Origin: a virus
Lineage: Duplodnaviria > Caudoviricetes
DNA length: 54,217 nt
IMG/VR virus record: IMGVR_UViG_3300031965_000040
Coordinates: 1-54,217 of that record
Reading direction: 5' to 3' (one strand)
How positions within the stretch are numbered: position 1 is the first letter of the stretch; every line of letters begins with the position of its first letter. The notes under the pieces are model-generated. The model saw only the letters and a program-made list of their open reading frames with translations. It did no database searches and was not told the origin of the DNA. Position numbers and translations under genes: made by a program. Below, piece after piece: positions 1-37,933 of the stretch.

Positions 1-172
1 CGCATCTCGAGCACGAACTCAACGGTTGCCCCCCGCCGCCAGTCACAGGCCCGCGCCCAGGCGCCGAGTGGGTGACGGTCTCGCAGGCTTACTGGATGCT
101 GGGTCGTCAAACGCTGGTGGGCGGCCTGGGGCCGTTCAAGCCGCTCACTCACGTCAAGTGCGCCCGGACTCC
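1..172 (+). repeat. Terminal direct repeat, left copy (matches 54046-54217)
   Basis: 172 bp identical except positions 17, 18 and 46. Confidence 0.97.
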
Positions 173-5494: not shown

Positions 5495-5522
5495 TTGACG
5501 AACCCGAGAATATTCGTACTAT
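5495..5522 (+). promoter_or_regulatory. Sigma70-like promoter of the moron gene
   Basis: TTGACG-N16-TACTAT. Confidence 0.5.
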
Positions 5523-5922: not shown

Positions 5923-5947
5923 CGGTCTGACGAAGTAGTTTTCACCG

Positions 5948-5969
5948 AGCCCCCATCCGGGGGCTTTTT
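5948..5969 (+). terminator. Intrinsic terminator
   Basis: AGCCCCC-ATCC-GGGGGCT followed by TTTT. Confidence 0.8.
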
Positions 5970-5985: not shown

Positions 5986-8796
5986 ATGAAGCGCTTCATT
6001 GCGAGAGCCGTTGTCGTCTTGGCGATACTGGCGATCTCTCCGCTCGCCATTGCTCAGTTTTGGGAAGCGATACGGCTAGGCGCGCAGAACTGGCAGGCCG
6101 AGCAAGCGGACGGCACGGTCATTTCGCTGCATCAGTCCGAAGCCGAGGCGGTCGAGAGCTGCCAGCGCTGGGCACTCGACAACATTCAGGACGATATCGT
6201 TCCGGTCTGCATCACGCGGCACAACGGGACGATATGGCGCCCGACGACGGCACTGGCGCAGACGATCATCAACGCCGGGAAGTTCACGGCCACGGACAGC
6301 GGGGTCATCGACACCCGCTACCCCGACGGCGACGACGGTGCCGCTCCCACCTTCGAGTGGGCGACGATCCCGAGCTTTACCAACAAGGTCGAAGGCACTC
6401 CGTTTACCGTTGACCTTCGAGCAACGTATCTGACCGAGCCTGGAACGCCTGACGCCACGCTCTCGATCATCGGCTGTACGCTATCGGGTGGCTGGTCATT
6501 CGTGAGCCCTGATCTGGCTTACAGCGACACGGGCACGGCGTCTTTGACTGGCTGCCAAGCTCGCGCGGTACGTGAAGGGGTGACGGTTGATAGCAATGCG
6601 TTCAGCGTCGAGTCGGTAGCCGCCGAAACTCCTGGCACGGACACGACAGCGCCGACGCAGATCGTCATAAAGGCTGTGGATCTAGACGGCAGCGATCAGC
6701 CGGTCATCAGTTTTTACGCTCCAGCCGATCCGGAGGTTGCCGACGAAGATGTTTCAGGTCTCGCCACCTTCACCGTTCTGAGAGACGGTACTCCACTAAC
6801 GCCGACTGCTTTTACGGGCTCCGATACTCCGGGCTTGACTTACACAGCAGCCACGGTCGGGACGGTCAATAACCCGAGCAACAGTCCAGACCCTCCCCTT
6901 GGAGTTGATTTCACGATAGGAGCCGATGGCGGGAACAGCATTGACGGCTCTAATTTCCATTGGGTCTACGCACCTGTTGCTGGAGATTTTACCTCCATAA
7001 TCAAGGTGACGAGCGAGACTGGCGGAACCCAAGCCAATCGGGGAGGGAATCTCTGTGTGCGTGAAGGCACCGCCGCGGGCTCACGCCAGGTCTGTATTCA
7101 CCATCACGCCGATAGCGGCAATGTCCGATCTTACACGCGAAACACTACTGACGGTGCGGTCGTTCAAGACGGTTTGACGGCTTTCACGGCTCCAGGGTGT
7201 CTTGCCATTACGCGCATAGGATCTGTTATCACGACGCTTTCTAGCGACGACACAGACTGCCGCAACTTAGCCACGAACCTGAGCCAGACGCTCAATCTGA
7301 ATCCAACTGTTCTGGTCGGTCCTGCCTCAAATTCCAATCAGAACGGCACGCCGGTATCTGTCGTCAACGCCAATGTGACGCTCAACACGCTCCCGGTTCA
7401 GTCATTCACCGATACCGGAGCAACTGCCGGCACTACACCGAGCTACACGATTATCAGCGACGACGTTGATGGTAACGTAGCAACTGCCTCGGCCGCTGGC
7501 AGCATCGAGGTGCCTGCCGGGTCGCCCCCGACTGGCGACCGCTACTCGGATGAGTACACAGATCCGGTTGCTGGCGTTACTTTGCTCGGCGGGCGCACAA
7601 ATACTTCAGTCACAGTCGGGCAGCTCGCAACGGCGCTCGGCGACCAAGACTGCGGTGAGACCCTACAGCTTGCGGACGGCACGCATACCGGCAATCACAC
7701 GATCAACGCCACTTGTGCGGCGAACAATCCCTTTGTCGTCGAGTGCCTAAACGCTCTCCAATGCACTGCTACAGGCGCTTGGACGATGGGCGGGGCGAGA
7801 AATATCGTCACCGGGATATTGTTCTCCGGTACCGCAGTGCGGATCAATATCGGCGGCACGAATAACAAGTTTATCGCTAACGAGGTCACTGGTAGCAATG
7901 GCGGCCCGAATATTTCTCTTTCGCGCAACGGCTCGACGCCGGAGGTTGCCTATAACGAGATACACACTCCGGCTGGCTTTGGCGGTGCAACGACTGGCAA
8001 CCGACAAGCCATACGCACGGTGGATGACGGTCCGGCCGATTTCCCATACGACGGTTGGATTCATCACAACTACATTCACGATTGGATAGACAAGCCTGTT
8101 CCTACTAACTACTCATCCGGTCAAACGGACGCGATCGAGATTTGCGAGACTTCTCGGTTCGACTATCCGACCATCGATAGCGGCTACTGGATAGAGTACA
8201 ACCGGATCGAAGATCATCCGCAAGGCACACAAATCGGCGCGGCTACCGTCGATTTCAAGTGCGGTGGCGTAGTTGCCGCCTACAACACCTTCATCAACGT
8301 GCCCGGAAACCTGGATCAGCGCGGCGGGACGTTGCACGGCTCGATATTCGAGAGCAACTATTTCGACGTGAACAGCGACGGGATGCGCGCCCACGGTTAT
8401 GACAACGTGTTCATCGGCAACGCCATCAAGAACACGGGTGCATACGATGTCATGTCTGGCAATCTGACTGGAAATCCCGTGTGCAGCCAGCAAAACCAGG
8501 CTGGCGGACACTCGTGCGCGAGTGACAACCGATTCTCAGGCAATGAGGGCAAGCTGATTGTCGGTAAGTTCTTCAACCCCGAAGGAAACTATGACGAGCC
8601 CGCCCGAAATACACTCATCGAGCAGCATACCGGCGCGATCTCTTTGATTGCCGGGCATCACACCGGAACCGTCGATAATCGAAACAGCGACACGGCACTC
8701 CCCTTCACACCCGCTGCTATTCTACCGACGACGGCGGTAGGTCCTGATGCGCTCGATGACGCGAGTGCGGCGTACAAGGCGGCGCGAGGCTTTTGA
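5986..8796 (+). CDS. Signal-peptide-bearing multidomain fibre/depolymerase: Ig/FnIII-like, lectin-like beta-sandwich, and PL6 (chondroitinase B/alginate lyase)-like beta-helix
   Basis: MKR + hydrophobic core + AIA|Q; DTTAPT/LRDG/SFTDTG FnIII motifs; WIHHNYIHD, IEYNRIE, FKCGG..YNTF...LDQRGG; 16 Cys. Confidence 0.7.
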   Translation: MKRFIARAVVVLAILAISPLAIAQFWEAIRLGAQNWQAEQADGTVISLHQSEAEAVESCQRWALDNIQDDIVPVCITRHNGTIWRPTTALAQTIINAGKFTATDSGVIDTRYPDGDDGAAPTFEWATIPSFTNKVEGTPFTVDLRATYLTEPGTPDATLSIIGCTLSGGWSFVSPDLAYSDTGTASLTGCQARAVREGVTVDSNAFSVESVAAETPGTDTTAPTQIVIKAVDLDGSDQPVISFYAPADPEVADEDVSGLATFTVLRDGTPLTPTAFTGSDTPGLTYTAATVGTVNNPSNSPDPPLGVDFTIGADGGNSIDGSNFHWVYAPVAGDFTSIIKVTSETGGTQANRGGNLCVREGTAAGSRQVCIHHHADSGNVRSYTRNTTDGAVVQDGLTAFTAPGCLAITRIGSVITTLSSDDTDCRNLATNLSQTLNLNPTVLVGPASNSNQNGTPVSVVNANVTLNTLPVQSFTDTGATAGTTPSYTIISDDVDGNVATASAAGSIEVPAGSPPTGDRYSDEYTDPVAGVTLLGGRTNTSVTVGQLATALGDQDCGETLQLADGTHTGNHTINATCAANNPFVVECLNALQCTATGAWTMGGARNIVTGILFSGTAVRINIGGTNNKFIANEVTGSNGGPNISLSRNGSTPEVAYNEIHTPAGFGGATTGNRQAIRTVDDGPADFPYDGWIHHNYIHDWIDKPVPTNYSSGQTDAIEICETSRFDYPTIDSGYWIEYNRIEDHPQGTQIGAATVDFKCGGVVAAYNTFINVPGNLDQRGGTLHGSIFESNYFDVNSDGMRAHGYDNVFIGNAIKNTGAYDVMSGNLTGNPVCSQQNQAGGHSCASDNRFSGNEGKLIVGKFFNPEGNYDEPARNTLIEQHTGAISLIAGHHTGTVDNRNSDTALPFTPAAILPTTAVGPDALDDASAAYKAARGF

Positions 8797-10064
8797 TGCG
8801 CGTCTACTTCCTATGTTTGCTCTACTTGCTGGCGTCGTCCGCGCACGCGCAGATTGCACAAGTCGAAGCGGGGGCGCTCACTCACTTCGACGCGGACACG
8901 GGTGAAGTCCCTAACGTCAGCACGCCGACGAGCGGCAATCTCATCATGGTCGTATCCAATGCCGATGACGATGACGCTACTTTTACGGTCGCAGAGACCG
9001 GATTCAACGACGACATCGTAAGCGTCGGCACGCTGGCCACTGCTTCTAGTGGTCTTATAGCTACAAAGATTTCGGATGAAACCGAAGCGGCAAATCTGAC
9101 GGTTAACGCGACCGGCAACGCCGTTGCGGACATGAACGGCCAGACTTTTGAGCTTAGCGGTATCAACACCACGACGCCGATAGGCGACACGCAAGACTGC
9201 GGGAACGTGCAGAATGTAGCGCCGTATCCGGCTATGGATTGCTCGGTCACGGTCGCGGAAGGGGACTGGTGCTACAACTTCTTCCACAAGGAAGGCGGCG
9301 GCACGACTTTTACCGGCCCGCCGGCTGGGTGGACGCTAGTTATCGACCCCGAAGACGTGATTATGTCTACGAACGAGAAAATGGGTCTCGCTCGTCGTGA
9401 CAGCACCTCAGCAGGCACGTGTACTTTCCCCGCAGGAGGCTGGGAATCCAATTTCACGGGCACCGATTGGCGGGGCGCTACGTTCGTTGTTCAGATTGCA
9501 TCGGCAGCCGGCGAGTTCGACGTAACGCCCGCGGTCGCCTCTCAGACGGCCACGGCGTACACGATAGACGGCTCTCTCGATGCGGCCGGCACCGTGGATA
9601 TGGTGGCCTGCCCGAAGGATCAAACGGCCCCTACGATCGCTCAGGTGCAGGCTGGGGACTGCACAGGCGATGTAGCGGCGATGGCGACGGCCACGGCTTC
9701 TCCAGCTATGACGCCGTTCGACTTCTCCGAAGTGCTGACGCTCGCCAATGGATTTCGTATCGCCGATCTGTACATCACGGACGGCACGAACCTAACGACG
9801 CTGGCCGATGAGGAACTGGACTGCCCTGCCTCATCGAACTGTGTGACGCTTTCCGGCGCACCGATGACGGACCCGTTGCAGCTCACGGACTGCACGACCG
9901 GCGATCTCGTGCGCATTGACTCGCTGACGACGCCTGATGGTTTTGCGACGAACATCGAGACCGACGGCAGTATTCAGTATTTCGCTGGCGGTGACGAATC
10001 TCGGCAGTTCATGGACGGCGACTGCTACGACGTGAGTGCAGAGGCGCTAGACCTGTATGACTAG
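8796..10064 (+). CDS. Signal-peptide-bearing acidic beta-rich protein (fibre/decoration-like)
   Basis: MRVYFLCLLYLLASSAHA|Q; Thr/Asp/Gly-rich; 10 Cys in the mature part. Confidence 0.7.
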   Translation: MRVYFLCLLYLLASSAHAQIAQVEAGALTHFDADTGEVPNVSTPTSGNLIMVVSNADDDDATFTVAETGFNDDIVSVGTLATASSGLIATKISDETEAANLTVNATGNAVADMNGQTFELSGINTTTPIGDTQDCGNVQNVAPYPAMDCSVTVAEGDWCYNFFHKEGGGTTFTGPPAGWTLVIDPEDVIMSTNEKMGLARRDSTSAGTCTFPAGGWESNFTGTDWRGATFVVQIASAAGEFDVTPAVASQTATAYTIDGSLDAAGTVDMVACPKDQTAPTIAQVQAGDCTGDVAAMATATASPAMTPFDFSEVLTLANGFRIADLYITDGTNLTTLADEELDCPASSNCVTLSGAPMTDPLQLTDCTTGDLVRIDSLTTPDGFATNIETDGSIQYFAGGDESRQFMDGDCYDVSAEALDLYD

Positions 10065-10674
10065 GCGCTTTCTGTGGGGCGTTTGCATCGGGTTTTTCGC
10101 GAGTAAAGCCCTTGCCACGTTCGTATTCAACAACGGCGTGCCGTTCGTCCCTGACGAGTGGCCGCTGTCTCCAGGTGAGGACGCACTTTACCAGGACGGA
10201 ACAGCATGGATGCTCGACACCGACACGGGCAATCTGTCCATTGGCGGTGTCGGGGATGATTTCGTATCGGCCGATCACGTCACCGATCCAGAGTCCGATG
10301 ACCTGACGTGGAGCGAGGATTCTGGAGCGATCCCAGACGGTACTTGTGGTACGCACACGTTCACGTTGCGGGCCGAAGATCCCTACGGTGACGGTGTCGA
10401 TCTATCGAGTGAAGTCTTGATAGGTGAGGTCGTCCCTGATGTCGAGGATGTTGCCGAAGCGACTGCGGTATCTACGATAGAGGCGCTGTGCAGTCTTACA
10501 ACCGTAGACGGCGGGGATATTTGCTCAGTGCTTGCGGAGGGGAACGTGGCCAGGACTTCACCCGTTATCGGGACTTTGGTCGAGGCGGATGCGGCGATCA
10601 CGTACTTTCTGAGCAGCGGGCAGTTGTGTGGTGGCGGCGGTCTATTGATTGACGTAGGAGTACGAATCCAATGA
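10057..10674 (+). CDS. Exported protein with an Ig/cadherin-like segment and a C-terminal PASTA-like domain
   Basis: MTRRFLWGVCIGFFASKALA| signal; VTDPESDDLTW..GTHTFTLRAED; VVPDVED..EATA...GNVARTSP..GTLV.....ITYFLSSG. Confidence 0.65.
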   Translation: MTRRFLWGVCIGFFASKALATFVFNNGVPFVPDEWPLSPGEDALYQDGTAWMLDTDTGNLSIGGVGDDFVSADHVTDPESDDLTWSEDSGAIPDGTCGTHTFTLRAEDPYGDGVDLSSEVLIGEVVPDVEDVAEATAVSTIEALCSLTTVDGGDICSVLAEGNVARTSPVIGTLVEADAAITYFLSSGQLCGGGGLLIDVGVRIQ

Positions 10675-11096
10675 AACGGCTAGCAGCATTGGCGCTTTTG
10701 ATCCTGTTGGGGATCGTGACGGACCAGCCGGAAGTGGCGCAGGCCGCGTGTCAGACGCAATCGGTCTCCGTTCTCGGCAGCCATGTCACTTACGAGAACT
10801 CCTGCACGGAGAACGACGAGGAGATCATCGTTACTGGCGACTTGAGCGTTTACGACGTGTGCTCGATCGTGAGCACGACCGGCGCGGTTGATCTGCTGGT
10901 GTCTCTGGACGGCGAAGTTACCTATACGACGGTCGCTATGTCGTTCCTCGACAAAGGCGCGGTCGATACGGTGCCGGTGAACGTGACTGCGGCGGGTACG
11001 CTCTATGCGTTCCCCGTGGTGTTCACGCATCTCAAGGTCCTGCAGAACGGTGCGACCGATGCCGCTGTGATTTTGCGCTGCAGCGATCTCTATTGA
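10671..11096 (+). CDS. Small signal-peptide-bearing beta-sandwich protein (spike-base/decoration-like)
   Basis: MKRLAALALLILLGIV..AQA|; VDLLVSLDG motif; 4 Cys. Confidence 0.65.
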   Translation: MKRLAALALLILLGIVTDQPEVAQAACQTQSVSVLGSHVTYENSCTENDEEIIVTGDLSVYDVCSIVSTTGAVDLLVSLDGEVTYTTVAMSFLDKGAVDTVPVNVTAAGTLYAFPVVFTHLKVLQNGATDAAVILRCSDLY

Positions 11097-11179: not shown

Positions 11180-12199
11180 ATGTACGACGAGACTTTTATC
11201 AGCTTGCATGGACGGTTGTTCGGTATCACGCCTGATGGTCTTCCGGTCGCGAACGGTCGGATCATGTTTCCCGCGCCGGGTACTGGGCGGGGACGGCTGA
11301 TCTTTTGCGATCCGGCGAATGGCAGCGACGGTAGGAAGGCGTACACGCCGGGGACGGCCGTGGCAACACTGGGGGATGCACACGATTTGGCGACAGCCGG
11401 CGAGAACGATGTTGTCGTGCTGATCGGCGATGGCGGGACGACGGCGACGGCGCGAGTCGAGGAAACGCTCGTGTGGAGCAAGAATGCCACGCACTTGATG
11501 GCGATTACGGCGCCGACGTGGGAAGCGCAGAGAGCGCGAATCTCGCATCTGACGACAGCTACATTGAACATCAATCCGCTCATGCAGGTGACTGCCTCGG
11601 GCTGTTTCTTCGGCGGGTTTTCGTTCTTCCAGGGTGTTGGTGAAGCCGCTACCGATGAGGAGTTGCTGGAGGTCACCGGGGATCGGAACTACTTCTACAA
11701 CATCCATTTTGGCGGTATGGGCCATGCGAATGGCGCTGCGCGAGCTGGGAGCTACCTGATCCAGCTCACCGATGGAGACGAGAATACGTTCGAGCGTTGC
11801 GCGGTTGGTCTCGAGACGAAACAGCGCGGCGCGGCGAACGCCAGCGTCCGAGTTCGAAGCGGGTCTCAGCGTAATCGGTTCCTCGACTGCGAGTTCCCGA
11901 TGGCGGCGAGCGAGACAACCCCGTTGTGGGTGGATGCGGACGCCGACAATGCCTTGAATGGCTCGACGTTGATCTTCCGGCGCTGCTTCTTCCGCAATTT
12001 GCTGAACATCAGCGGAGCGGCGACTCCTGCAGTTGTCGCGACTTACCACGCGCAGGTCAATGGCACGATCTATTTCGTGGATTGTGTCGCTGCGGCTACG
12101 AAGTGGGCGGCCGCGGGCACGGAGGTTCAGGTCGGCGGAAACTCCGCGCTTCCGGAAGGTTTCAACACAGGTCTTACGGACCAGGCGCGCGACTCGTAG
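11180..12199 (+). CDS. Parallel beta-helix protein, probable head fibre (no signal peptide)
   Basis: IFCDPANGSDG...P..AVATL..A....AGENDVVVL cap motif followed by N.F..C beta-helix repeats; AGGAG SD. Confidence 0.7.
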   Translation: MYDETFISLHGRLFGITPDGLPVANGRIMFPAPGTGRGRLIFCDPANGSDGRKAYTPGTAVATLGDAHDLATAGENDVVVLIGDGGTTATARVEETLVWSKNATHLMAITAPTWEAQRARISHLTTATLNINPLMQVTASGCFFGGFSFFQGVGEAATDEELLEVTGDRNYFYNIHFGGMGHANGAARAGSYLIQLTDGDENTFERCAVGLETKQRGAANASVRVRSGSQRNRFLDCEFPMAASETTPLWVDADADNALNGSTLIFRRCFFRNLLNISGAATPAVVATYHAQVNGTIYFVDCVAAATKWAAAGTEVQVGGNSALPEGFNTGLTDQARDS

Positions 12200-12651: not shown

Positions 12652-13070
12652 AAATCCAGTGGACCGGCGAGAATTTCGACGACGTGAAGCGCTTGCTGGA
12701 TCACCACGCCTGCCAGGTGCGTGATGACTCGGGTGTCTTGCGTATTACGGGAATTGGCGATCTCGATACCCGAGTCGAGCTTGGCGAGACGATCGAGGTT
12801 CGGCTGCGGGGCGGCGGCTTGTTCGATGGCATCGGGATCCACCGTACACCTTACGAGGGGCCAGAGCCTGAGATCATCTGGGACGGCACCAATGCCGGGG
12901 CCATTGCGGCGTTTGTCGAGAAGCACGATGTTGACGTGAGCGTGATCGGCGACGATCTGTTTCTCGGCCACCAGAACGAGAAAACCCTCGTGCATCGCGG
13001 AGATAAGCTGCTGATCCGCGATGGGCGGTATCTCTGCTGCTCGAGGGCGGGGAAGGATCATCGGGTTTGA
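12648..13070 (+). CDS. Hypothetical protein with an internally duplicated WTGEN/WDGTN domain
   Basis: IQWTGENFDDV...GETI and IIWDGTNAGAI...GDKL halves; ATGA overlap. Confidence 0.65.
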   Translation: MKIQWTGENFDDVKRLLDHHACQVRDDSGVLRITGIGDLDTRVELGETIEVRLRGGGLFDGIGIHRTPYEGPEPEIIWDGTNAGAIAAFVEKHDVDVSVIGDDLFLGHQNEKTLVHRGDKLLIRDGRYLCCSRAGKDHRV

Positions 13071-13081
13071 GGAATTCGACT

Positions 13082-13477
13082 ATGAAGCGCAGAACCTTTA
13101 TCCAAAGCGTTGTTTCGGCCATTGGGCTGTCGAGCGTGTTTCGTCCTGCGGAGGCTCGTCTACACGACGAGGAAATCGTTGCCGGTGACGAGGATAAGTG
13201 GCGCAGCGTCTATGACGTTGAATCCACTCTGAAGTACCTGCCAAAAGACGCAAGATTCTTTGCGTGGACTGATCTGGATGGACAGCACCATTGCCATGTT
13301 GTGACGGAACTGCCAAGTCGAGTGTATTGGGAGGATCAATCTAGTTCAGACGGTAACCGTGTCAGCCTTGATCAATTCACGCATCGCACGCTCAAGATAG
13401 CTGATCTACTCTATCTGCGTGCGGTCGATAGGCTATTTCCGCTCATGCAGGCGCCGACGGCCTTCCCATGGCAATGA
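13082..13477 (+). CDS. Hypothetical protein with a twin-arginine (Tat)-type signal
   Basis: MKRRTFIQSVVSAIGLSSVFRPAEA|; GAGG SD. Confidence 0.6.
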   Translation: MKRRTFIQSVVSAIGLSSVFRPAEARLHDEEIVAGDEDKWRSVYDVESTLKYLPKDARFFAWTDLDGQHHCHVVTELPSRVYWEDQSSSDGNRVSLDQFTHRTLKIADLLYLRAVDRLFPLMQAPTAFPWQ

Positions 13478-21145: not shown

Positions 21146-21721
21146 ATGAGTCGCGCTGCGATAATGATGGAGGGCGCAGGGTTTGACCTGCGTCCTAAAC
21201 CAACCGCGCATAACTTTCGCGACCTATCTGAGAAACGGTTCGGCAGACTGGTTGCAGTCGGATACGCAGGTCGGTCTGGCGTACATTCGCGGTGGGCGTG
21301 TAAGTGCGATTGCGGCAGCCGTCTCTATGTTTTGGGCACGAACCTTCTCACCGGAAACACGACAAGCTGTGGTTGCGTCCACAGTGAATCAACCGCAAAG
21401 GCAAAATACATTCATGGTCATGCGGTAGATGGCCTCACGAGCGAATACTCTACGCACCGTAGCATGATGGCCAGATGCCACGAGTCGCAATCAATTGGAT
21501 ACGAATACTACGGCGGCCGTGGGATCCACGTGTGCAATCGCTGGAGATTCGGTGAGGATAACAAGACTGGGTTTCAGTGCTTCATTGAGGACATGGGCTG
21601 CAAGCCAGCAGCGGATCTCACAATCGACAGAATAGACAACAATGGCAACTACGAGCCCGGCAACTGCCGATGGGCGACGCGGCAGCAGCAGGCGCTCAAC
21701 AAACGACCCAGGCGGAGGTAG
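21146..21721 (+). CDS. HNH-type homing endonuclease
   Basis: [53 protein letters not shown]. Confidence 0.85.
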
Positions 21722-30400: not shown

Positions 30401-33400
30401 CGGTTCAAGGCGTGGCTAGTTCAGATCTATCGCCGATTATCAGCCTTGAATGTCGAGCTCACGGACGAGGTACGCAGCGTATTCGATCGGCTGGTTGCCA
30501 CTGACGATGCGATAGAGGCGGCGAACGAATCGCAGAACTATATTCCGTTGTTCACGAATGCGGAGGCTGCCGGCCTTTCCAGGGAACAGTTCGAGGCGTA
30601 CCGCAATACCGTTCAGCAGGCTCGAATAGACGCCGAGGAAGATCTCGGCCGCAAGCTCCTGGCCATCATGACGCGCGAGCAGCAGAAATGGTGGAGGGAG
30701 GAAACGGCGAAGATGCGGGAGACCGTCGCGGCCGAGGTTCACGGGATGCGTGTGTACCAGGCGCTCTCGTTTCTGCAGCTTGGCAAAGCACCGGACGGCA
30801 CGGTATCCGAGGTCACACCGGTCAAGCTCTCCAAGGCCATCCTCATGCGTGAATTCGCCTATCCGCAGGAGTTTCTGAACCGGCTTCCCGGGGGCGGCAA
30901 GACGACCGTCTACAGCGTCGAGGGCGGTGTGCATCCGGACGTCATCGCCGGCATGTTCGGCTATCGCGGCACGGACGAGATGATCCAGGATCTCGTCAAC
31001 GCGCGTCCGATGAAAACGCTGATCGAGGCCGAGACACTGGCCAGGATGCGGGAGAAGTACCCGGACCCATTGACCGACGGCTCGCTAGCCGAGGACGCGA
31101 TGACGGCGGTCCACAACAACAAGCAGGCCGAGCTGCTGGCGGCCGAGCTTCGGGCGTTGCGACGGAAGCAGCGCGAGGTCAGGGCGTTTGTGCGTGCTGG
31201 GGAACTCACGGCGGCGCGGGAGCGACGAGAAGCCAGGGAAGCCAATCGTGGGCAACTGCCGGACCTGGACGAGCTCAGGCTCATTCGTGCGGCCTCAGAG
31301 CGCATCGTGGGCGAGCGTCAGGTCCGCAGTATCACGCCGCACACCTATCGGGTGGCCGAGTCCAAGGCGGGGCGCAAGGCGTTCGAGGCGGCGGCTCGGG
31401 GTGATTTTGAGACCGCGTATCTCGAGAAGCGCAAGCAACTGCTCAACCACGAGCTTTATCGGGCGGCGACCCATGCTCAGGAGCAGTCGGAGAAGATCCG
31501 AGACTACTTCAAGAAGTTCGGTAAGCAGCGTGTTATCGAACGGCTCGGGAAAGCCGGTGAGGGTCTCTTGGAGCAAATCCAAGCCATTCTCGAGGACATC
31601 AGTTTCAAGCGCGTCTCAAACCGGGCCATTGATCGAAAGAACGAGGTGCTGGAGCAGATCAAGAACGGCGAGATCGTTGCCGATCAGAAAGCGGAAGCGA
31701 TTCTTCGCGCTACCGGAACTAAAAACTGGCGCGAGCTGACGCTCAACGAGCTCGTCGGCATCCGTGACATCGTGGCTCAGATCGAGCACCAGGCCCGGAC
31801 CTTGTCGGAGGCGCTCGTCAACGGAGAGAAGCGGAAGATCAAGGACTCCGCTCAGGCTATCGCCGATAGCGTTGTGGCCGGGAACGCGCCGATTGCGATC
31901 ACGGTCGGGACTCGCGGGCCTGGAGATACGGGCAAACGCCTTGCAAAGCAAGCCTTGCTGGCTTGGTTGAGGTCCTCAGAGATCGCGCGACAGTTGGATG
32001 GCGGTCTCGATTTTGGAGCCGTGACCCGGCTGATCATTGTGCCGATCCGCAGGGCGTATGCGGAGAAGCTGATCCCGATGCAGAAGAAGGCGCGCGAGGA
32101 TGTTGCCGACCTGTATCGGGCACACTTCACGAACAGCGAACTTTCAGGCCTCAGTCGCCGGGAGCATATCCAGGAGCTTAATCTGTCGTTGACTCGCGGT
32201 GATCTGATCTCGCTGGCGCTGAATTGGGGGAATGAGGGAAATCGACAAGCGCTGCTGGATTCTGAATTCGAGGGCGGGCGTCTCTATCCAGAGGCCGGTA
32301 TCACGCAAGCGATCAGCCGGCTCAATGCGCGGGAACTTGCGTTCGTGCAGGCCATGTGGGACTACATCGATACCTACTGGGCCGATATTGCTGCACTCGA
32401 GAAACAGCGGCGCGGCATCTCGCCCAAAAAGGTAGAGGCATCGCCATTCGTTGTTCAAACCGCGGACGGCCCGGTCGCGATGCGCGGCGGATACTATCCG
32501 TTGAAGTACGATGCCGTGCTCTCGGCCATGCAGAAGTCAGACGACGTCGAGACCGAATTCAAGCACTTCACGCAAGGGCGGTTCACGACGGTGTCAACTC
32601 GAGCCGGGGCGACGCATGAGCGTGTCGGATCTGGGAAGCGCGCGGTACGGCTTGGGCTTGGTGTCATCGATCAGCATCTCCACGAGATCACCAGGGACAT
32701 TGCGCTCGGGAACGAGGTCGGGTTCGTCAATCGCGTGCTTCACGATCGCACGCTCCAGTCGGCGTTCGCAAAGACGGGGAATTCGGAAGCGCTGGCGGCG
32801 CTGAAGCTATGGCTGCAGGACGCGGCGGTCGGTGAGATTGCGGCGCGCGGCATCGTGAACCAGTCCGCTGCGTGGGTCCGCGTCGGGTTCACGAAGGCCA
32901 AGCTCGCATGGAACATGACGACCACGTTGCTACAGGTGACTGGTCTGCCTCAAACGATGGTGGTCGTGGGTCAGCGTGCTTTTGCTCACGGTGCCGGCAA
33001 GTTTGCATCCAATCCGCGGGCGATGCACCGGCACATCATGGAGCAGTCCGCGTTCATGCGGGCCCGGTATCAAACGAACTCATGGAACAAGGACGTTTCC
33101 GACACCAAGGCGTACCTAGAAGCGTACTTCGGCGGGGTGCCGACGCGCACCAAAACCTTCTGGAATGCGGTGTCGTACTCCTATTTCTGGCCGATCGCGC
33201 GCATGCAAATGGGCGTCGACGAGGTGACGTGGCTTGCCGGTTATTGGAAAGGCGTCTCGGAGCGAAGCCTTTCTGACGCGGATGCCGTGCTGTATGCGGA
33301 CACCATCGTCGAGAACGCTCAGACGTCGGGCTTTTTCTCCGATCGGTCGGCGGTTGAGAGAGGCTCCCTCGATACCACGACGGCTCGCCAAGCGCAGTAC

Positions 33401-33922
33401 GTGAAGCTCTGGACGACGCTCATCTCCTACATGTTGGCAAAATCCAATATCGCTTACGCAAAGGGGCGCGCGTTCATTCGAGAGCCTACGCTGTGGGGTG
33501 CAACCACATTGGCGGCCGACCTGATCATGCTCTACACGGTCGAGGGCCTGATGGCAGCAGCAGTTCGAGGCCATTTGCCGGATCCCGATGACGAGGAATC
33601 GTGGATTTGGTGGCTGCTCAAGGAGTCCGCAGCCTCTCTGATGTCCGGCATTCCGTTCTTGAGAGAAGTGCAATCGGCCAAGTTCGGGTCCGGCAATACC
33701 CCGATGGGGAGTGTTGCGACCGATCTCTATAAAACGATGGAGCAGGCACAGCAAGGCGAGATCGATCCGGCGATGATCAAAGCCTTCAACAACGTCGGCG
33801 GCACCTTGTTCCACTACCCGAGCTCGCAAACGAATCGCGCGATCGATGCTTACTGGGCTGAGAACGTGGAAGGCGAGGACGTGTCGTTCTACGAGTACAT
33901 CATTGGGAGACGACGAGAATGA
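27443..33922 (+). CDS. Giant ejection / polyvalent protein (gp16-like) with an ART-like insert and an HExxH module
   Basis: 2159 aa; VYHHTS..A.KILESG.L...VYVTT segment; DLSSLLHESGHFYL...HEQFARGFEAYL; GGYYPLKYD; hydrophobic C-terminal region. Confidence 0.8.
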   Translation: MSNEYDDLLQQNEYDTLLQGPAVQRRNSVSGVIDRNPDQSAEVISLSQRTGIPAPMVERNRESIASQEKLNEYDALLEKSPALSDFVSEPENASVAHDDIASLSGLEWVTQAFSRSHSSMWDTIRMAQEFSGPVREGDRERAETSMQETDFGAEGWFERAIVESGRVLPTMEHAIAEGLRLGIPAAVGTGTIAAAALTPAAAPAGAAAGFTVGMAYGTFDAVYDLESGLAYQEYLTMRDENGEYLLDEQTAKLAAQTVGVINAGLESFSLGYIASKIPGLRRWKATAGREAIRQALATPTFRQALTRFAGAYAGAMGTEVTTEILQEASTILGGEIAGRLAEGEFQGLSRAELANRLGEVAVRTAQGMTFIAGVGPSMQFVADARRANQANRNQAVIQALGDTAQSSKLRERLPSKFREYVARLREGGDIDAIRIPVERFDEYFQTQGIDPEAIASEVGAGESYVQAQAAGTDLEISLEDYATKLAGTDHHAGLMQDIRFRPDDMTAREAEAWQAEGDRITQELSEGLQNQPVSRPVYEDVLGQLLQTGMERGAAEQNATLTASVFETLGQRSGVDPAELYQRYGLQIQREQPEVLRNLQRFDVTIDPLIDRLRSGALPTDKEIYGDSLGEFLRSKGGLQDQGGDLAARDVQKVIRGLVKPEGMTFDAAAELAQEAGYITERSEDALLDAIDREAQGEAVFVPQGNQQLLDLRAALNDLDTYLKQEGVDIQAAENQQVRELLQGTTFDQGIIPPVTSERGPGEQLTEEQSREPEGERIDEATGLPLNSDGTVTVYHHTSKEKAAKILESGVLKSVAEPDVYVTTRREPDTGYGDAAVPIRVDPSELALDDEFPGGRKDFRLSVGKPGGSRTVVVEQSFEQTRGSTRRGSIRFGADRQFNINLLKDADLSSLLHESGHFYLEVLGDLAEAENAPAQIIQDYAAILKWFGVESRQAIAVEHHEQFARGFEAYLMDGKAPSIELQNAFARFKAWLVQIYRRLSALNVELTDEVRSVFDRLVATDDAIEAANESQNYIPLFTNAEAAGLSREQFEAYRNTVQQARIDAEEDLGRKLLAIMTREQQKWWREETAKMRETVAAEVHGMRVYQALSFLQLGKAPDGTVSEVTPVKLSKAILMREFAYPQEFLNRLPGGGKTTVYSVEGGVHPDVIAGMFGYRGTDEMIQDLVNARPMKTLIEAETLARMREKYPDPLTDGSLAEDAMTAVHNNKQAELLAAELRALRRKQREVRAFVRAGELTAARERREAREANRGQLPDLDELRLIRAASERIVGERQVRSITPHTYRVAESKAGRKAFEAAARGDFETAYLEKRKQLLNHELYRAATHAQEQSEKIRDYFKKFGKQRVIERLGKAGEGLLEQIQAILEDISFKRVSNRAIDRKNEVLEQIKNGEIVADQKAEAILRATGTKNWRELTLNELVGIRDIVAQIEHQARTLSEALVNGEKRKIKDSAQAIADSVVAGNAPIAITVGTRGPGDTGKRLAKQALLAWLRSSEIARQLDGGLDFGAVTRLIIVPIRRAYAEKLIPMQKKAREDVADLYRAHFTNSELSGLSRREHIQELNLSLTRGDLISLALNWGNEGNRQALLDSEFEGGRLYPEAGITQAISRLNARELAFVQAMWDYIDTYWADIAALEKQRRGISPKKVEASPFVVQTADGPVAMRGGYYPLKYDAVLSAMQKSDDVETEFKHFTQGRFTTVSTRAGATHERVGSGKRAVRLGLGVIDQHLHEITRDIALGNEVGFVNRVLHDRTLQSAFAKTGNSEALAALKLWLQDAAVGEIAARGIVNQSAAWVRVGFTKAKLAWNMTTTLLQVTGLPQTMVVVGQRAFAHGAGKFASNPRAMHRHIMEQSAFMRARYQTNSWNKDVSDTKAYLEAYFGGVPTRTKTFWNAVSYSYFWPIARMQMGVDEVTWLAGYWKGVSERSLSDADAVLYADTIVENAQTSGFFSDRSAVERGSLDTTTARQAQYVKLWTTLISYMLAKSNIAYAKGRAFIREPTLWGATTLAADLIMLYTVEGLMAAAVRGHLPDPDDEESWIWWLLKESAASLMSGIPFLREVQSAKFGSGNTPMGSVATDLYKTMEQAQQGEIDPAMIKAFNNVGGTLFHYPSSQTNRAIDAYWAENVEGEDVSFYEYIIGRRRE

Positions 33923-35934
33923 AACGGATTTTCATTGCCCTGATCGTAGCCGGCTTTGCCGGCTTTTTTGTGCCTGTGCAAAGCCAGATCACGGATCGGC
34001 TTGCCGGCGTCCAAACCGGGTTAGCAGTAAAGGCGCCTGTCAAGGTCGCGACTACTTCCAATATCACGCTCTCGGGCGAGCAGACGATCGACAGCACCTC
34101 CGTTGTAGCAGGCGATCGCGTTCTAGTCAGAGAACAAACCGATGCGACTGAGAACGGTATTTATGTCGTCTCGACCTCAGCATGGACTAGAGCCGCTGAT
34201 TTTGACGGCAATCGAGACGTAGCAAACGGCACGCTTGTAGTCGTTCCTCGTTCTTCTGGGCAAGATTATTTCTACCAGACGGATGCCACAGACCCGGTAG
34301 TCATAGGCACCAGCGAAATAACCTTCACGCTCGCCAATGACCCGAATATCACGTATGACATCACTGACGCCGAGATCGCCGCAGGGGTGACGCCAGACGC
34401 TTCATCTAAACCACCTGGCTACACCACTCGTTACCCTAACGGATTGGCAGATGCTCTGTTGCAAGCTGACGAATCCGGCGGTGCTACAGAAATTATCTTT
34501 GCAGCAAGCGAGACAATAAGCACTGGCCTAACGGCTGCTGTTGATTACCTCGATGTTACCGCTATCGACGGGGCGATTCTGACCTACTCGGGAACAGGGG
34601 TCGCGGTGACTTTAGGCAATGCTTCCGAGGACACTTACTACAATTTATGGGACGTGCCTATAAAGCGCGATGAGAACGAATGGGACGACGGGACAGACAC
34701 CACCAGCATCGGGCTTCAAATAAGACGTATCAGGCATTCGGAGATTTATGCCGATATCGAAAATTTCAACTACGGGCTCAACTCGTTTGGAATTACCGGA
34801 GGGAATGTCCACAACACGATTTCTATCAAACACATTCTCGACAACCGAATCGGTGTGCTTTTGGACCGTGACGGGGCGAGCGCGGGATGGAACAACGATA
34901 ACGAGTTCTGGGGCGGTCGAATCGGCTATCGGTCGGGGACCATAGATACTGCGATAGCCAACTCAATCGTAGTCAAGCATTTATCCCAAGCGCATGCGAG
35001 CGACAACGCAACGGTGCTTTTCGGCACTGCGTTTGAAATATCCGCTACGTCAGGATCGTTGCCCAGCGATTCTAGTGTCCTTGAGATCAACGGACTCGAT
35101 AACAGGATAGCCCCAGGACGATTCGAGAATTCCAATGCCGGCCTGACGCAGTACATCCTATTCGGTGCCAGCTCTGCTCGTAATGTGATTGAGTTCGGCC
35201 GTTACCAGCTCAGCATTTCCACGGCTGATTTCGTGAACGATCTTTCCGGGACTGCCTCGACTAATAGAGTGTTCGGCTTCAACAGCACTTGGAACTACGG
35301 TCCCCACACGAGAATAGTGGTTGGGGCTATCGAAGCCACTGGTAGACCATCATCTGCTAATTACGGCGGCGATGACGATTCCGAAGCCAGTGTGGTGGCT
35401 AGAAACTTGAACTCGTCCGCAAGTCGAGTGTGGGCCGGTAAAAGCAGCTCGACCGACATTACCTCGTCCATCCTCGGCACGGGTAGAACTGGAATTGGCA
35501 AGGATGCTGTCGCGAATATGGGCATGCTCCAAGTCCACAACCCGATTACCTCTGGAGGGACTGACGAAACCCGTTCGTGGAACGTCATGCCGTTTTTGGA
35601 GGCGACTACCGATGATAGTGGAGATGCCGAGAATTTCGATTCCGTGACCATCCCCATAAACTCGATCACTTGGGTGAAGGTGCGGACAATGGCTCGGTAC
35701 GATGACGGGACTAAGTTCTGGTTGGAGGACAGAATTGCCCTGATAGAAAGAGGGGCTGGTGCTGCGGCTGTTTCTCAGCAATCTCAGGTCTCGGTTCTCG
35801 ATCCAGATACCGCTGGAGTGACTGCGGTAGTACAGGTTCCAGGCAGCCAGCTTCAAATGCTGTTGACTGGAGTGGCCGCCACCGCAATCACCTTCATGGG
35901 GACTATCGAGTGGCAGACGTATACCGATGATTGA
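33919..35934 (+). CDS. Tailspike/tail fibre with an apparent N-terminal signal peptide
   Basis: ATTSNITLSGEQTID...GDRVLV..QT...ENGIYVV..AWTRA.D attachment domain followed by a beta-helix region; preceded by MKRIFIALIVAGFAGFFVPVQS|Q. Confidence 0.8.
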   Translation: MKRIFIALIVAGFAGFFVPVQSQITDRLAGVQTGLAVKAPVKVATTSNITLSGEQTIDSTSVVAGDRVLVREQTDATENGIYVVSTSAWTRAADFDGNRDVANGTLVVVPRSSGQDYFYQTDATDPVVIGTSEITFTLANDPNITYDITDAEIAAGVTPDASSKPPGYTTRYPNGLADALLQADESGGATEIIFAASETISTGLTAAVDYLDVTAIDGAILTYSGTGVAVTLGNASEDTYYNLWDVPIKRDENEWDDGTDTTSIGLQIRRIRHSEIYADIENFNYGLNSFGITGGNVHNTISIKHILDNRIGVLLDRDGASAGWNNDNEFWGGRIGYRSGTIDTAIANSIVVKHLSQAHASDNATVLFGTAFEISATSGSLPSDSSVLEINGLDNRIAPGRFENSNAGLTQYILFGASSARNVIEFGRYQLSISTADFVNDLSGTASTNRVFGFNSTWNYGPHTRIVVGAIEATGRPSSANYGGDDDSEASVVARNLNSSASRVWAGKSSSTDITSSILGTGRTGIGKDAVANMGMLQVHNPITSGGTDETRSWNVMPFLEATTDDSGDAENFDSVTIPINSITWVKVRTMARYDDGTKFWLEDRIALIERGAGAAAVSQQSQVSVLDPDTAGVTAVVQVPGSQLQMLLTGVAATAITFMGTIEWQTYTDD

Positions 35935-35958
35935 GCAACTGGTTGAGGATCTGAGCTA

Positions 35959-36420
35959 ATGAAAATCACTCTTTACACCTTAGCTCATCGATTCCGCGGG
36001 ATGAAGGAAATTGCGGGAGAAAAGGACCAGCCGTTCATCGTGTGGTGTCATTCGTTGTGCGGGCTTGGGATCGATCAGCCAGACGAAACGCCGTGGTGCA
36101 GTTCTTGGCTGAACGGGCTCGCATTCCTGCTTGGCCTGCCGCGCTCTGAGAGTGCTGCGGCACGATCCTGGCTCGAGGTAGGGAAGCCCGTTTTTGCAGA
36201 CGAGGCGCGCCCTGAGTTCGACGTGGTGGTTTTCAAGCGGGGTCCAGACCCTCAGCCTGGCCCGGAAGTGACTCGCGGAGCTCCTGGGCATGTCGGGCTG
36301 TTTGCCGGTGAGGACACCAACGGCGAGATTCTAGTGCTTGGGGGCAATCAGGGGAACACGGTCTCGATACAGCGATTCCCGGCTAATCGATTGTTGGGTA
36401 TTCGGAGGTTATATGATTGA
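35959..36420 (+). CDS. NlpC/P60 (TIGR02594-like) peptidoglycan hydrolase, probable endolysin
   Basis: DETPWCSSW, ARSW, GHVG, LGGNQ.N.V motifs. Confidence 0.85.
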   Translation: MKITLYTLAHRFRGMKEIAGEKDQPFIVWCHSLCGLGIDQPDETPWCSSWLNGLAFLLGLPRSESAAARSWLEVGKPVFADEARPEFDVVVFKRGPDPQPGPEVTRGAPGHVGLFAGEDTNGEILVLGGNQGNTVSIQRFPANRLLGIRRLYD

Positions 36421-36613
36421 TTCAGGTTGGCGTACTTCTACAAATGCTGCCCTCGCTGGCGGTCTTGCCGTCATCGTGATTTCGCTTCTACGGTATTTCG
36501 CCCCCGAGTTCATGGCGAGCTCGCCTGACGGGCTTGAAATTGGGCTGGCGGGCGTGTTCGTTTGGCTCATTGCGCGCGCCTCCAAGACGCCTGCGACTCC
36601 CGGAAAGCTGTGA
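36413..36613 (+). CDS. Putative holin
   Basis: 66 aa, two hydrophobic segments, GGAGG SD, between lysin and spanins. Confidence 0.65.
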   Translation: MIDSGWRTSTNAALAGGLAVIVISLLRYFAPEFMASSPDGLEIGLAGVFVWLIARASKTPATPGKL

Positions 36614-36858
36614 TCAAGCTTTGGAGCGCCATCAAAAGCGGTGTCATGTGGCTGGTCGCCGCTATCGTCGCTTTGGCCGTGTTGCTGTTCGGTGCTCGAC
36701 GATCAGGACGCGATGCCGAGCGCGTCGAGAGACTGGAAAGCGAACAGGCACGAGCCCGGGAAACCGATGAGGTCAAAGATGAACAGCTCGAAGCTGCGGC
36801 TCACCGCCCTCGTGATCGTGCTGAGCTTGATCGCCGGATGCGGAACGGCCCATTTTGA
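36610..36858 (+). CDS. i-spanin (Rz-like)
   Basis: N-terminal TM followed by a charged coiled-coil; overlaps a lipoprotein gene. Confidence 0.7.
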   Translation: MIKLWSAIKSGVMWLVAAIVALAVLLFGARRSGRDAERVERLESEQARARETDEVKDEQLEAAAHRPRDRAELDRRMRNGPF

Positions 36859-37021
36859 ACGGCCGTTACCAGCGTGTCCGGTAGTCGTAGAGTACGAGCA
36901 GAATCTTCTCAACCGTGCTGCCGATGAGCTTTGGCTGCTGCCGGCCGACAGCGCGATTGACCAGATGCTCAGGGACTTCGCCGTGATGCGAGCCCAGGCC
37001 CGCTCTTGCCGGAGGCTGTGA
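36779..37021 (+). CDS. o-spanin lipoprotein (Rz1-like)
   Basis: Lipobox LIAG|C, CPVVVEY, overlaps the i-spanin in another frame. Confidence 0.75.
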   Translation: MNSSKLRLTALVIVLSLIAGCGTAHFERPLPACPVVVEYEQNLLNRAADELWLLPADSAIDQMLRDFAVMRAQARSCRRL

Positions 37022-37024
37022 ATC

Positions 37025-37426: not shown

Positions 37427-37429
37427 ACC

Positions 37430-37675
37430 ATGACTAACGGCAACGGCGTGCTATCCATGGTGGAGCGTGTATTGGCTCCTGTTCTCGCAGTAATTGTGAC
37501 CACCATGATTTTCGGCGGGGTCAATCTTCGTGATGCGGTACGCGACTTGCATATATGGAAAGACGAGACCCATCCGCTGCAAACCGAGCTTGCTCACGAG
37601 CAGATATTGACGACGGTGAGATCGAATCAAATGGAGCTTGAGGACTTGAGAGAACGAATCAGGAGATTGGAATGA
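37430..37675 (+). CDS. Small membrane protein (N-terminal TM, coiled coil)
   Basis: VLAPVLAVIVTTMIFGGV followed by LEDLRERIRRLE. Confidence 0.6.
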   Translation: MTNGNGVLSMVERVLAPVLAVIVTTMIFGGVNLRDAVRDLHIWKDETHPLQTELAHEQILTTVRSNQMELEDLRERIRRLE

Positions 37676-37902: not shown

Positions 37903-37933
37903 TGACTGGTTCAGGCGCGTAACTTGGACCTTG

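What the first reader, a model, noticed from the sequence alone, without database searches (positions are those of the whole stretch)
5986..11096. Late operon of four exported, probably disulfide-bonded fibre/decoration-type proteins: candidate periplasmic virion-maturation system
Seen: four translationally coupled late genes (936, 422, 205, 141 aa) each begin with a basic/hydrophobic/AxA signal-peptide pattern. By hand count their mature parts hold 16, 10, 4 and 4 Cys, all even numbers and mostly locally paired. Their domains (FnIII/Ig-like, lectin-like, beta-helix, PASTA-like, spike-base-like) resemble capsid appendages, and they sit next to a signal-less head-fibre-like gene just upstream of the terminase. 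Established: tailed phages assemble in the reducing cytoplasm, and disulfides form in the periplasm via DsbA. Inference: these appendages are exported, oxidatively folded in the periplasm and docked onto virions only at lysis. An alternative is that they are secreted matrix-degrading or lysogenic-conversion factors.
Basis: partly seen in the sequence, partly recalled or inferred. Interest (0 to 1): 0.9.

Follow-up and report, generated by a model that had tools for sequence, protein, structure and literature searches.

The report
Phage fibre-like proteins routed to periplasm
A soil phage puts export signals and paired cysteines on four fibre- or enzyme-like late proteins and on its tail spike, so parts that tailed phages normally build inside the cell seem to be folded outside the cytoplasm.

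Summary
Four translationally coupled ORFs (936, 422/423, 205 and 141 aa) each start with a Sec-type signal peptide. Their mature parts carry 16, 10, 4 and 4 Cys.

Export and disulfide bonding are well supported by comparison. In the 134 relatives of the second protein, 76 of 80 signal-bearing members have an even Cys count (median 13). The 40 signal-less members have a median of 2. Cys columns come and go in pairs.

- **Protein 1** ends in a PL6-type beta-helix lyase with the catalytic Lys and Arg conserved.
- **Proteins 2 and 3** are the two halves of a roughly 600-aa protein that is fused in relatives. Protein 3's signal peptide is an insert at the split point.
- **The module** recurs upstream of the terminase in phages with unrelated head genes, in both exported and signal-less versions.
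Six related phages lack it at the same position.

Docking onto virions after lysis is untested but now has circumstantial support. Acting free on envelope polysaccharide is about as likely. No relatives of proteins 1 and 2 were found among 50,697 deposited phage genomes.

The parts
5947..5966 (+). Terminator-like hairpin (8 pairs, 6 G-C, then a T run) 20 nt before the start of A. A promoter-like site lies at 5495-5522. The layout recalls an antitermination-controlled start of a late operon.
   Evidence: consensus match only
5986..8796 (+). A, 936 aa. Signal peptide residues 1-23 (AIA|Q). Residues about 46-487 are beta-sandwich modules shared with a signal-less 466-aa protein (L008) and with the 812-aa protein of L006. 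Residues about 523-936 are a PL6-type right-handed beta-helix with K758 and R779. 16 Cys.
8793..10064 (+). B, 422/423 aa. Signal peptide ending AHA|Q (read by eye; the script placed the cut two residues earlier). N-terminal jelly-roll domain of about 230 aa, FN3/Ig-like domain with the conserved pair C272-C289, then a further beta domain. It is the N-terminal two thirds of a roughly 600-aa protein that is fused in relatives. 10 mature Cys.
10057..10674 (+). C, 205 aa. Signal peptide MTRRFLWGVCIGFFASKALA|T (cut read by eye), followed at once by the FVFNN motif that continues the fused homologues. He_PIG/PASTA-like C-terminal third of the fused protein. 4 mature Cys.
10671..11096 (+). D, 141 aa. 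Signal peptide ending AQA|A. The mature part is a small beta-sandwich. 4 Cys. No sequence relative was found. The nearest Atlas clusters are viral proteins of 115-132 aa that align to residues 26-141 only.
11180..12199 (+). E, 339 aa, without a signal peptide. No family match. Role unknown.
13067..13477 (+). 136-aa protein with a Tat-like signal (KRRTFI..., h-region, AEA|R), directly upstream of the small terminase subunit.
   Evidence: motif reading only, no model hit
33919..35934 (+). 671-aa tail-spike-type protein at the T7 gp17 position. Signal peptide MKRIFIALIVAGFAGFFVPVQS|Q, conserved anchor-type N-domain (about residues 22-140), 0 Cys.

Best explanation
A-D are late proteins that the Sec system carries into the periplasm of a diderm host. 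There signal peptidase I cuts them at AXA sites and the host's thiol oxidase closes their cysteines into local disulfides.

They are the exported version of a phage module that other phages make in the cytoplasm. A joins beta-sandwich binding modules to a PL6-type lyase that cleaves an acidic (uronate-containing) surface or matrix polysaccharide. B and C are two halves of one multi-domain Ig/jelly-roll binding protein. D is a small beta-sandwich protein.

My committed reading is that they work free of the particle. From the periplasm, before and at lysis, they bind and cut the infected cell's own capsule, EPS or polysaccharide receptor. That would stop progeny from being trapped on debris and stop further phages from adsorbing. 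The closest analogy is a receptor-destroying enzyme.

Shown: the ORFs, the signal-peptide patterns, Cys parity and covariation, the PL6 likeness, the gene split, and recurrence of the module. Inferred: cleavage, oxidation, substrate, timing, and independence from the virion.
For: **Signal peptides are conserved in the module.**
- All of the 3, 4 and 3 module proteins in loci L001, L005 and L006 have them.
- C carries a roughly 21-codon insert encoding a new signal peptide exactly where the fused homologues run on (...DEYxLVFNN). This is what is expected if both halves must reach the same compartment.

**Disulfides in the B family** (134 representatives, the window's own protein excluded).
- 80 were called signal-bearing, 40 signal-less and 14 ambiguous.
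- 76 of 80 signal-bearing members have an even mature Cys count (binomial p 3e-18; two of the four odd ones are my miscalled cleavage sites). Their median is 13 Cys, against 2 in signal-less members (Mann-Whitney p 2e-12).
- The conserved pair C272/C289 is present in 59 of 72 signal-bearing and 6 of 35 signal-less members (Fisher p 1e-10).
- Twelve column pairs gain and lose Cys together, for example 73 both against 9+2 single.
- In the A family, Cys also appear pairwise. Signal-bearing members have 16, 18, 12 and 18 Cys; the signal-less L008 protein has 3.
- Window composition: 2.10% Cys in the four mature proteins against 0.93% in the other 40.

**PL6 likeness of A.**
- A profile of A and 3 homologues hits AlyGC (E 4e-10) and chondroitinase B (E 4e-5). 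K758 and R779 align to K220 and R241 (those residues are named catalytic in passages of PMC12028748).
- The 16 best PDB fold matches are all PL6 lyases. Tailspikes appear only at E 0.05 or worse.
- Homologues of the beta-helix alone sit in two metagenomic polysaccharide-synthesis-like loci. I read sulfotransferase- and UDP-glucose-dehydrogenase-like N-termini there by eye.
- Relatives of A carry other C-terminal domains on the shared N-part.

**Independence from the particle.** The module lies upstream of the terminase in phages whose terminase, portal and capsid genes fall in different PHROG families.

**Diderm host.** T7-type tail tubular proteins A and B and a lipobox lipoprotein in the lysis cassette.
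Against: - The same phage puts a signal peptide on its only protein with the tail-spike anchor domain. If that spike still has to reach the particle, the same route is open to A-D.
- A has the build of a tail fibre or spike: a conserved N-part with swapped C-terminal enzyme domains.
- B's N-domain resembles domains of mycobacteriophage 'minor tail proteins' (TM by target 0.6-0.73).
- The signal-less version of the module (L008) cannot act from the periplasm, so the shared function may be one served after lysis.
- The Ca-binding Glu five residues before the catalytic Lys in PL6 enzymes is Ala here. A itself matches no Pfam model, so lyase activity is not assured.
- No signal-peptide predictor, no coordinates to measure Cys-Cys distances, and no expression or virion data.
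- Some signal-less family members are not Cys-poor (range 0-18). Several of those look like truncated fragments.
- The host is unknown.
Confidence: 0.42

Rival explanations
1. Two-compartment assembly. A-D and the tail spike are true virion appendages. They are exported and folded in the periplasm (A-D with disulfides). They bind to cytoplasmically built, spikeless particles only when holin, endolysin and spanin merge the compartments. They may digest polysaccharide from the periplasm beforehand.
For: - The 671-aa protein at the gp17 position has a signal peptide scoring as high as A's.
- Six relatives of the same tail module (tubular B 52-59% identical) have signal-less orthologues that begin at its residue 20-22.
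- A related complete phage (G001; terminase 40%, portal 42%, capsid 39% identical) also has a signal-bearing spike.
- 14 of the 119 listed homologues carry a signal peptide placed just before the conserved ITDRL N-terminus, and the anchor domain stays conserved in them.
- The window has only one copy of that domain.
- A has a fibre-like modular build. B resembles minor-tail-protein domains.
- Signal-less modules occupy the same genomic position (L008).
- From my own knowledge, not from a call: P22 tailspikes and T7 fibres attach to particles in vitro as the last assembly step.
Against: - No tailed phage is known to me to assemble this way. Two literature searches found none.
- A-D hit no virion family and travel between unrelated head modules.
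- A's helix is of the PL6 enzyme type, not the tailspike type.
- The spike has 0 Cys, so disulfides cannot be the reason for its export.
- GTG codons at spike residues 18 and 20 could give a cytoplasmic isoform, though no Shine-Dalgarno-like motif precedes them.
Confidence: 0.33
2. Superinfection exclusion or lysogenic conversion. The exported proteins mask or remodel the receptor or surface polysaccharide for the benefit of the infected cell or lysogen, like exported exclusion proteins of other phages.
For: - The phage is temperate in build: integrase (E 3e-29), RecET-like genes and XRE-type regulators.
- The proteins are exported binding proteins plus a glycan-cutting enzyme.
Against: - There is no promoter-like site between the hairpin at 5947-5966 and A.
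- The four genes are coupled and run on into the packaging genes without a strong terminator.
- The total of about 1,700 aa is large for an exclusion function.
- Signal-less versions exist.
Confidence: 0.13
3. The hydrophobic N-termini are not cleaved export signals. They could be membrane anchors, assembly tethers or mis-called starts, and the even Cys counts would have another cause such as metal sites.
For: No predictor or experiment was available. The heuristic also flags 2-3 doubtful proteins.
Against: - All four have a basic n-region, an uncharged h-region and AXA.
- The same holds in 10 of 10 module proteins of three other loci.
- Parity (76 of 80) and pairwise Cys covariation fit disulfides.
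- No CxxC motifs were found in the eight other window proteins checked, which did not include A-D.
- The annotated starts have Shine-Dalgarno-like motifs or ATGA-type overlaps.
Confidence: 0.05

Closest known systems
PL6 polysaccharide lyases (alginate lyase AlyGC, PDB 5gkd; chondroitinase B, PDB 1dbg)
   Same: Right-handed beta-helix. A profile of A and 3 homologues matches at E 4e-10 and 4e-5. Lys and Arg sit 21 residues apart and align to the catalytic K220 and R241. All top fold matches are PL6 enzymes.
   Different: Phage-encoded and fused behind about 500 residues of beta-sandwich modules. The Ca-ligand Glu at K-5 is Ala. A does not reach any Pfam threshold. The substrate is unknown.
Phage tailspike and free depolymerases
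   Same: Late-expressed beta-helix glycan-cutting domain on a modular protein with a conserved N-part and swapped C-parts.
   Different: Those known to me are made and folded in the cytoplasm and have no signal peptide (my knowledge; literature searches found no exported case). Here there are signal peptides and paired Cys.
Filamentous-phage coat proteins pIII and pVIII (recalled, not from a call)
   Same: Virion proteins exported by Sec with cleaved signal peptides. pIII is disulfide-bonded in the periplasm.
   Different: Those phages assemble at the membrane and are extruded. This is a tailed, lytic-type particle with terminase, portal and a lysis cassette.
Exported phage exclusion and lysis proteins (T5 Llp, P1 Sim, SAR endolysins, spanins; recalled)
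   Same: Phage proteins with Sec signals that act in the envelope of the infected cell.
   Different: Those are small single proteins. Here there is a four-gene, roughly 1,700-aa set of fibre-like multi-domain proteins plus the spike.
Experimental periplasmic targeting of a phage Vi depolymerase (PMC6003464) and the bacterial tailspike-like enzyme WceF (PMC7949094). For both I saw only the search listing and the start of the abstract.
   Same: By their titles, they concern a depolymerase placed in the periplasm and a bacterial enzyme with a tailspike-like fold.
   Different: One is an engineered construct and the other a bacterial gene. Neither is a natural phage module.

Membership tests
PL6 polysaccharide lyase (A, C-terminal domain) | Right-handed parallel beta-helix most like solved PL6 enzymes | tested here: met
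   Profile search E 4e-10. The 16 best PDB fold hits are all PL6, although the model is of low confidence overall (pLDDT 70-83 only in residues about 540-680).
PL6 polysaccharide lyase (A, C-terminal domain) | Catalytic Lys (base) and Arg (acid) | tested here: met
   K758 and R779 are invariant in 4 of 4 sequences and align to AlyGC K220 and R241. Their roles come from passages of PMC12028748.
PL6 polysaccharide lyase (A, C-terminal domain) | Ca2+-binding Glu five residues before the catalytic Lys | tested here: not met
   The aligned residue is A/A/V/I in the 4 sequences. D756 at K-2 is invariant and might substitute (Glu236 and Lys241 of MhAly6 in PMC12028748 passages).
PL6 polysaccharide lyase (A, C-terminal domain) | Pfam Chondroitinas_B above the gathering score | tested here: not met
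   A has 0 families at E<=0.1. Homologue P0004 scores 21.1 bits against a cut-off of 24.
Sec (type I) signal peptide | Basic n-region, uncharged hydrophobic h-region, small residues at -3 and -1 | tested here: met
   A, B, C and D fit my own heuristic. The pattern is conserved in homologues. No trained predictor was available.
Sec (type I) signal peptide | Cleavage and periplasmic location | not testable with these tools
   Needs fusions, fractionation or N-terminal mass spectrometry.
Disulfide-bonded exported protein | Even Cys number, Cys gained and lost in pairs, Cys depleted in cytoplasmic relatives | tested here: met
   76 of 80 even; 12 covarying column pairs; median 13 against 2 Cys. 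The A family also shows pairwise Cys. Cys-Cys distances could not be measured because no coordinates are returned.
Virion tail fibre or spike (A-D) | Homology to a known virion-attached protein or anchor domain | tested here: inconclusive
   No PHROG structural family matches. B's N-domain is fold-similar to 'minor tail protein' domains. The B central domain occurs inside giant proteins next to baseplate-like genes in L007, which I read by eye.
Virion tail fibre or spike (A-D) | Presence in purified particles | not testable with these tools
   Metagenomic phage with no isolate.
Moron or lysogenic-conversion cassette | Own promoter and terminator, separate from the late operon | tested here: not met
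   No promoter-like site between the hairpin at 5947-5966 and A. Genes overlap. Only weak 5-pair hairpins follow D.
PASTA domain (C) | Pfam PF03793 above the gathering score | tested here: not met
   14 bits against 23.2 in C. 10 of 35 family members match at E<=0.01, best 1.3e-8.

The most novel reading that the evidence does not exclude
This podovirus lineage builds its receptor-binding apparatus in a different compartment from its particle. The only tail spike and a set of accessory fibre or enzyme proteins are exported by Sec and folded in the periplasm (the accessory ones with disulfides). They join DNA-filled, spikeless particles only in the moments after the envelope is breached. That would be a two-compartment assembly pathway for a tailed phage. 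The same protein pool would first strip the dying cell's polysaccharide from within.
Probability: 0.3. Interest if true: 0.95.

Novelty: new variant of a known kind. Interest (0 to 1): 0.8.

Why it matters
Tailed phages are taken to fold and assemble all particle parts in the reducing cytoplasm. Here a whole class of fibre, spike and depolymerase-type proteins exists in two forms. One has a signal peptide and many paired cysteines; the other has neither. They occupy the same genomic positions.

That amounts to a natural experiment on how compartment shapes protein chemistry. It also points to one of two things. Either phages have a strategy of attacking the host's surface polysaccharide from the periplasm during infection, or particle assembly has a last step that happens only after lysis.

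Either outcome bears on how receptor-binding proteins and depolymerases should be predicted from sequence, and on how they should be expressed: these would need a periplasmic or oxidising host. The family is absent from deposited phage genomes, so it has been missed by work based on isolates.

Tried and rejected
**Searches that found nothing**
- Pfam, PHROGs and NCBIfam on A-D gave no family above threshold.
- blastn and tblastn of the region, A, a fused B-C homologue and a signal-less homologue against 50,697 phage records gave no match.
- IMG/VR scans with single proteins A, B and P0078 found none.
- A genome-contig scan with the signal-bearing B alignment found no relative among 19 pattern matches.
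- D has no sequence homologue and no convincing alignment to the proteins at the same position in other loci.
- PDB sequence searches with A alone and with E found nothing useful.

**Models and fold searches**
- The AlphaFold model of A from 5 sequences has mean pLDDT 44.7. Only the beta-helix part is usable.
- The PDB fold search with the good B model (pLDDT 89) gave only generic multi-domain beta-sandwich ectodomains at TM 0.12-0.20.
- Complex prediction of tail tubular protein A with three copies of the spike N-domain gave no verdict.

**Sequencing runs**
- No RNA holder is listed.
- Short contig pieces 85-100% alike lie on parts of the region in four other soil or sediment runs. They are too fragmentary to use.

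**Closed or unavailable**
- Model coordinates are not returned, so Cys distances were not measured.

**Literature**
- Two searches for exported tailed-phage virion proteins and one for exported phage depolymerases found no natural case. These cover open-access text only.

**Ideas considered and set aside**
- A cytoplasmic isoform of the spike from internal GTG codons: no Shine-Dalgarno-like motif, so left open.
- A phage-encoded thiol oxidase: no CxxC in the small exported candidates checked.

Full report
**What the window is.** The 54,217-base window is the whole record. It carries a 126-base repeat at both ends (47-172 = 54092-54217).

It is a phage with a lambdoid-style layout and a T7-type particle:
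- On the + strand: replication initiator, methylase and small regulators, then the region of the finding.
- Then the small and large terminase subunits (13468, 14021), portal (15949), major capsid protein (19410) and tail tubular proteins A and B (21728, 22366).
- Then internal proteins including one of 2,159 aa, a 671-aa spike-type protein and a lysozyme (35959).
- On the - strand: integrase, helicase, methylase, RecET-like genes and a BCS1-like AAA ATPase.

An ORF in the lysis region holds a lipobox (LIAGC). Together with the T7-type tail this points to a diderm host, which is an inference. Near-identical DNA is held by a soil metagenome run that may be the source. Fragments occur in four other soil or sediment runs. 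The host is unknown.

My simple signal-peptide rule flags 10 of 44 curated proteins. A run of four flagged genes is expected by chance in 1-5% of shuffles, depending on how many flags are counted as real. Gene order alone is therefore weak evidence. No trained predictor was at hand.

**Relatives of the module.** A has three close homologues. B has 134 representatives in a library of 1.8 billion cluster representatives. D has none.

Nothing related to A or B was found in 50,697 deposited phage genomes. The signal-bearing B alignment found no relative in one genome each of 185,579 prokaryote species.

Metagenome and IMG/VR contigs show the same module directly upstream of the terminase or at a contig end:
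- **L001:** an 834-aa A homologue, then a 604-aa protein that is B and C fused, then a 216-aa protein.
- **L005:** proteins of 816, 625, 199 and 110 aa, followed by the terminase genes.
- **L006:** proteins of 812, 627 and 228 aa.

All ten of these proteins begin with a signal peptide.

L008, a contig binned with a Nitrospirales MAG, has the signal-less counterpart at the same place. It encodes a 466-aa protein homologous to A residues 46-487 (E 2e-19) and a 694-aa B-type protein, followed by terminase and portal.

The head genes of the window, L005, L006 and L008 belong to different PHROG families. The module therefore moves between unrelated particle types.

Within the B family:
- 80 members have a signal peptide by my rule, 40 have none and 14 are ambiguous.
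- 76 of the 80 have an even number of Cys in the mature part. Two of the four odd ones are my own miscalled cleavage sites. The median is 13 Cys.
- The signal-less members have a median of 2.
- Signal-less members are collinear with exported ones. They replace the conserved pair C272/C289 with V/Y and G/N.
- Twelve pairs of alignment columns gain and lose Cys together.

In the A family, Cys also come in neighbouring pairs that are present or absent together.

In the window, C's signal peptide is an insert of about 21 codons at the exact point where the fused proteins continue. After the gene split, the downstream half acquired its own signal peptide.

Caveats:
- The sequences are related, so the counts are not independent events.
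- Some signal-less entries with many Cys look like fragments.
- Cys-Cys distances could not be measured.

**What the proteins are.**

*A.* The C-terminal 400 residues are a PL6-type beta-helix. The profile hits AlyGC and chondroitinase B. All top fold matches are PL6 lyases, while phage tailspikes score far worse. The catalytic Lys and Arg are conserved, but the calcium-binding Glu is not. Relatives carry other C-terminal domains on the same N-part. Stand-alone homologues of the helix lie in polysaccharide-synthesis-like metagenomic loci.

*B.* It models well (pLDDT 89). It is a chain of beta-sandwich domains. The first roughly 230 residues resemble a domain common in uncultured phage proteins and in mycobacteriophage 'minor tail proteins'.

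*The fused B-C family.* Members carry He_PIG and PASTA-like domains. The central domain also occurs as repeats in giant bacterial surface proteins and in giant phage proteins next to baseplate-like genes.

*D.* Its mature part resembles small viral proteins that lack the signal peptide (a lead only).

**The unexpected extension.** The 671-aa protein at the tail-fibre position also begins with a strong signal peptide. Homology to tail-fibre and virion-protein families starts right after it.

- Six IMG/VR relatives of the same tail module have orthologues that start where its mature part starts.
- A related complete phage, G001, shares the signal peptide and adds two more signal-bearing proteins after the spike.
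- 14 of 119 listed homologues have such a signal peptide.
- The window has no second copy of this anchor domain.

A 136-aa protein before the terminase has a Tat-like signal.

**Weighing the mechanisms.** Export and oxidation: about 0.9. What the exported proteins then do is open.

For a particle-independent role in cutting and binding the cell's own surface polysaccharide from the periplasm:
- The enzyme-type helix.
- The promiscuity of the module across head types.
- The lack of any virion-family match.

For docking after lysis:
- The signal peptide on the one spike that should sit on the tail, with its anchor domain conserved.
- The fibre-like modular build of A.
- The fold of B's first domain.
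- The existence of cytoplasmic versions at the same position.

I put the first at about 0.42, the second at about 0.33, exclusion or conversion at about 0.13, and 'not export signals' at about 0.05. The first two are not exclusive.

**Novelty.** I found no description of Sec-exported, disulfide-bonded fibre, spike or depolymerase modules in tailed phages (searches; open-access text only; supplementary files were not seen).

Filed conservatively, this is a new variant of known kinds: phage depolymerases and receptor-binding proteins on one side, exported phage proteins on the other. If docking after lysis is real, it is a new assembly route.

Noticed in passing
window 33919-35934 (+): The 671-aa tail-spike-type protein at the T7 gp17 position starts with a Sec-type signal peptide (cut after VQS). 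Six related phages have signal-less orthologues, and one related complete phage shares the signal. It has 0 Cys.
   Followed up: yes
window 13067-13477 (+): A 136-aa protein with a textbook-looking Tat signal (KRRTFI, mild h-region, RPAEA|R) lies just before the small terminase subunit. L008 has a 92-aa protein with an RR-type signal between terminase and portal (L008:13071-13349).
   Followed up: partly
window 39652-40941 (-): A BCS1-like AAA ATPase (Pfam BCS1_N 5e-26, AAA 2e-19, lid 8.5e-7) with an N-terminal hydrophobic segment. From my own knowledge, mitochondrial BCS1 moves a folded protein across a membrane. No link to the exported set was tested.
   Followed up: no
window 47-172 and 54092-54217: An exact 126-base direct repeat at the two ends of the record. 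It is consistent with a circular assembly or terminal redundancy, so the genome is probably complete.
   Followed up: partly
window 36641-37021, 37025-37426, 37672-37902 (+): The lysis region follows the lysozyme at 35959. One ORF holds a lipoprotein signal with lipobox LIAGC (o-spanin-like). A 133-aa protein has a C-terminal membrane segment. A 76-aa protein has a signal peptide and 2 Cys.
   Followed up: partly
window 21146-21721 (+): An HNH endonuclease (PHROG 374, E 1e-58; 10 Cys) is inserted between the capsid-side genes and tail tubular protein A.
   Followed up: no
L098/L099 (G001 33200-42778): In the related complete phage, the signal-bearing 1,442-aa spike (18 Cys) is followed by a signal-less 533-aa protein with a GDS(R)-type motif (possibly an SGNH esterase, read by eye). 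Two more signal-bearing proteins of 511 and 702 aa come next, before the lysis genes.
   Followed up: partly
L002 9809-11317 and L004 9797-11194: Stand-alone homologues (41% and 29% identity) of A's beta-helix sit in metagenomic loci. Their neighbours look like sulfotransferase, UDP-glucose dehydrogenase and polysaccharide export or polymerase genes, read from N-termini only.
   Followed up: no
window 9895-10068, run X3 record 14: A contig from another metagenome matches B up to the B/C junction. It then runs on for 67 letters that do not fit the window. A relative may have a different (perhaps fused) junction.
   Followed up: no
C-termini of B-C family proteins (e.g. P0007, P0009, P0014, P0016; window C 10600-10671): Many members end in a Gly-rich stretch followed by a short alternating hydrophobic strand (...LRLDLSLRL, ...IRIGIGM, window ...LLIDVGVRIQ) or in an Arg run (...RRRRRL). 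This could be a docking or strand-donation tail or a polyanion-binding tail.
   Followed up: no
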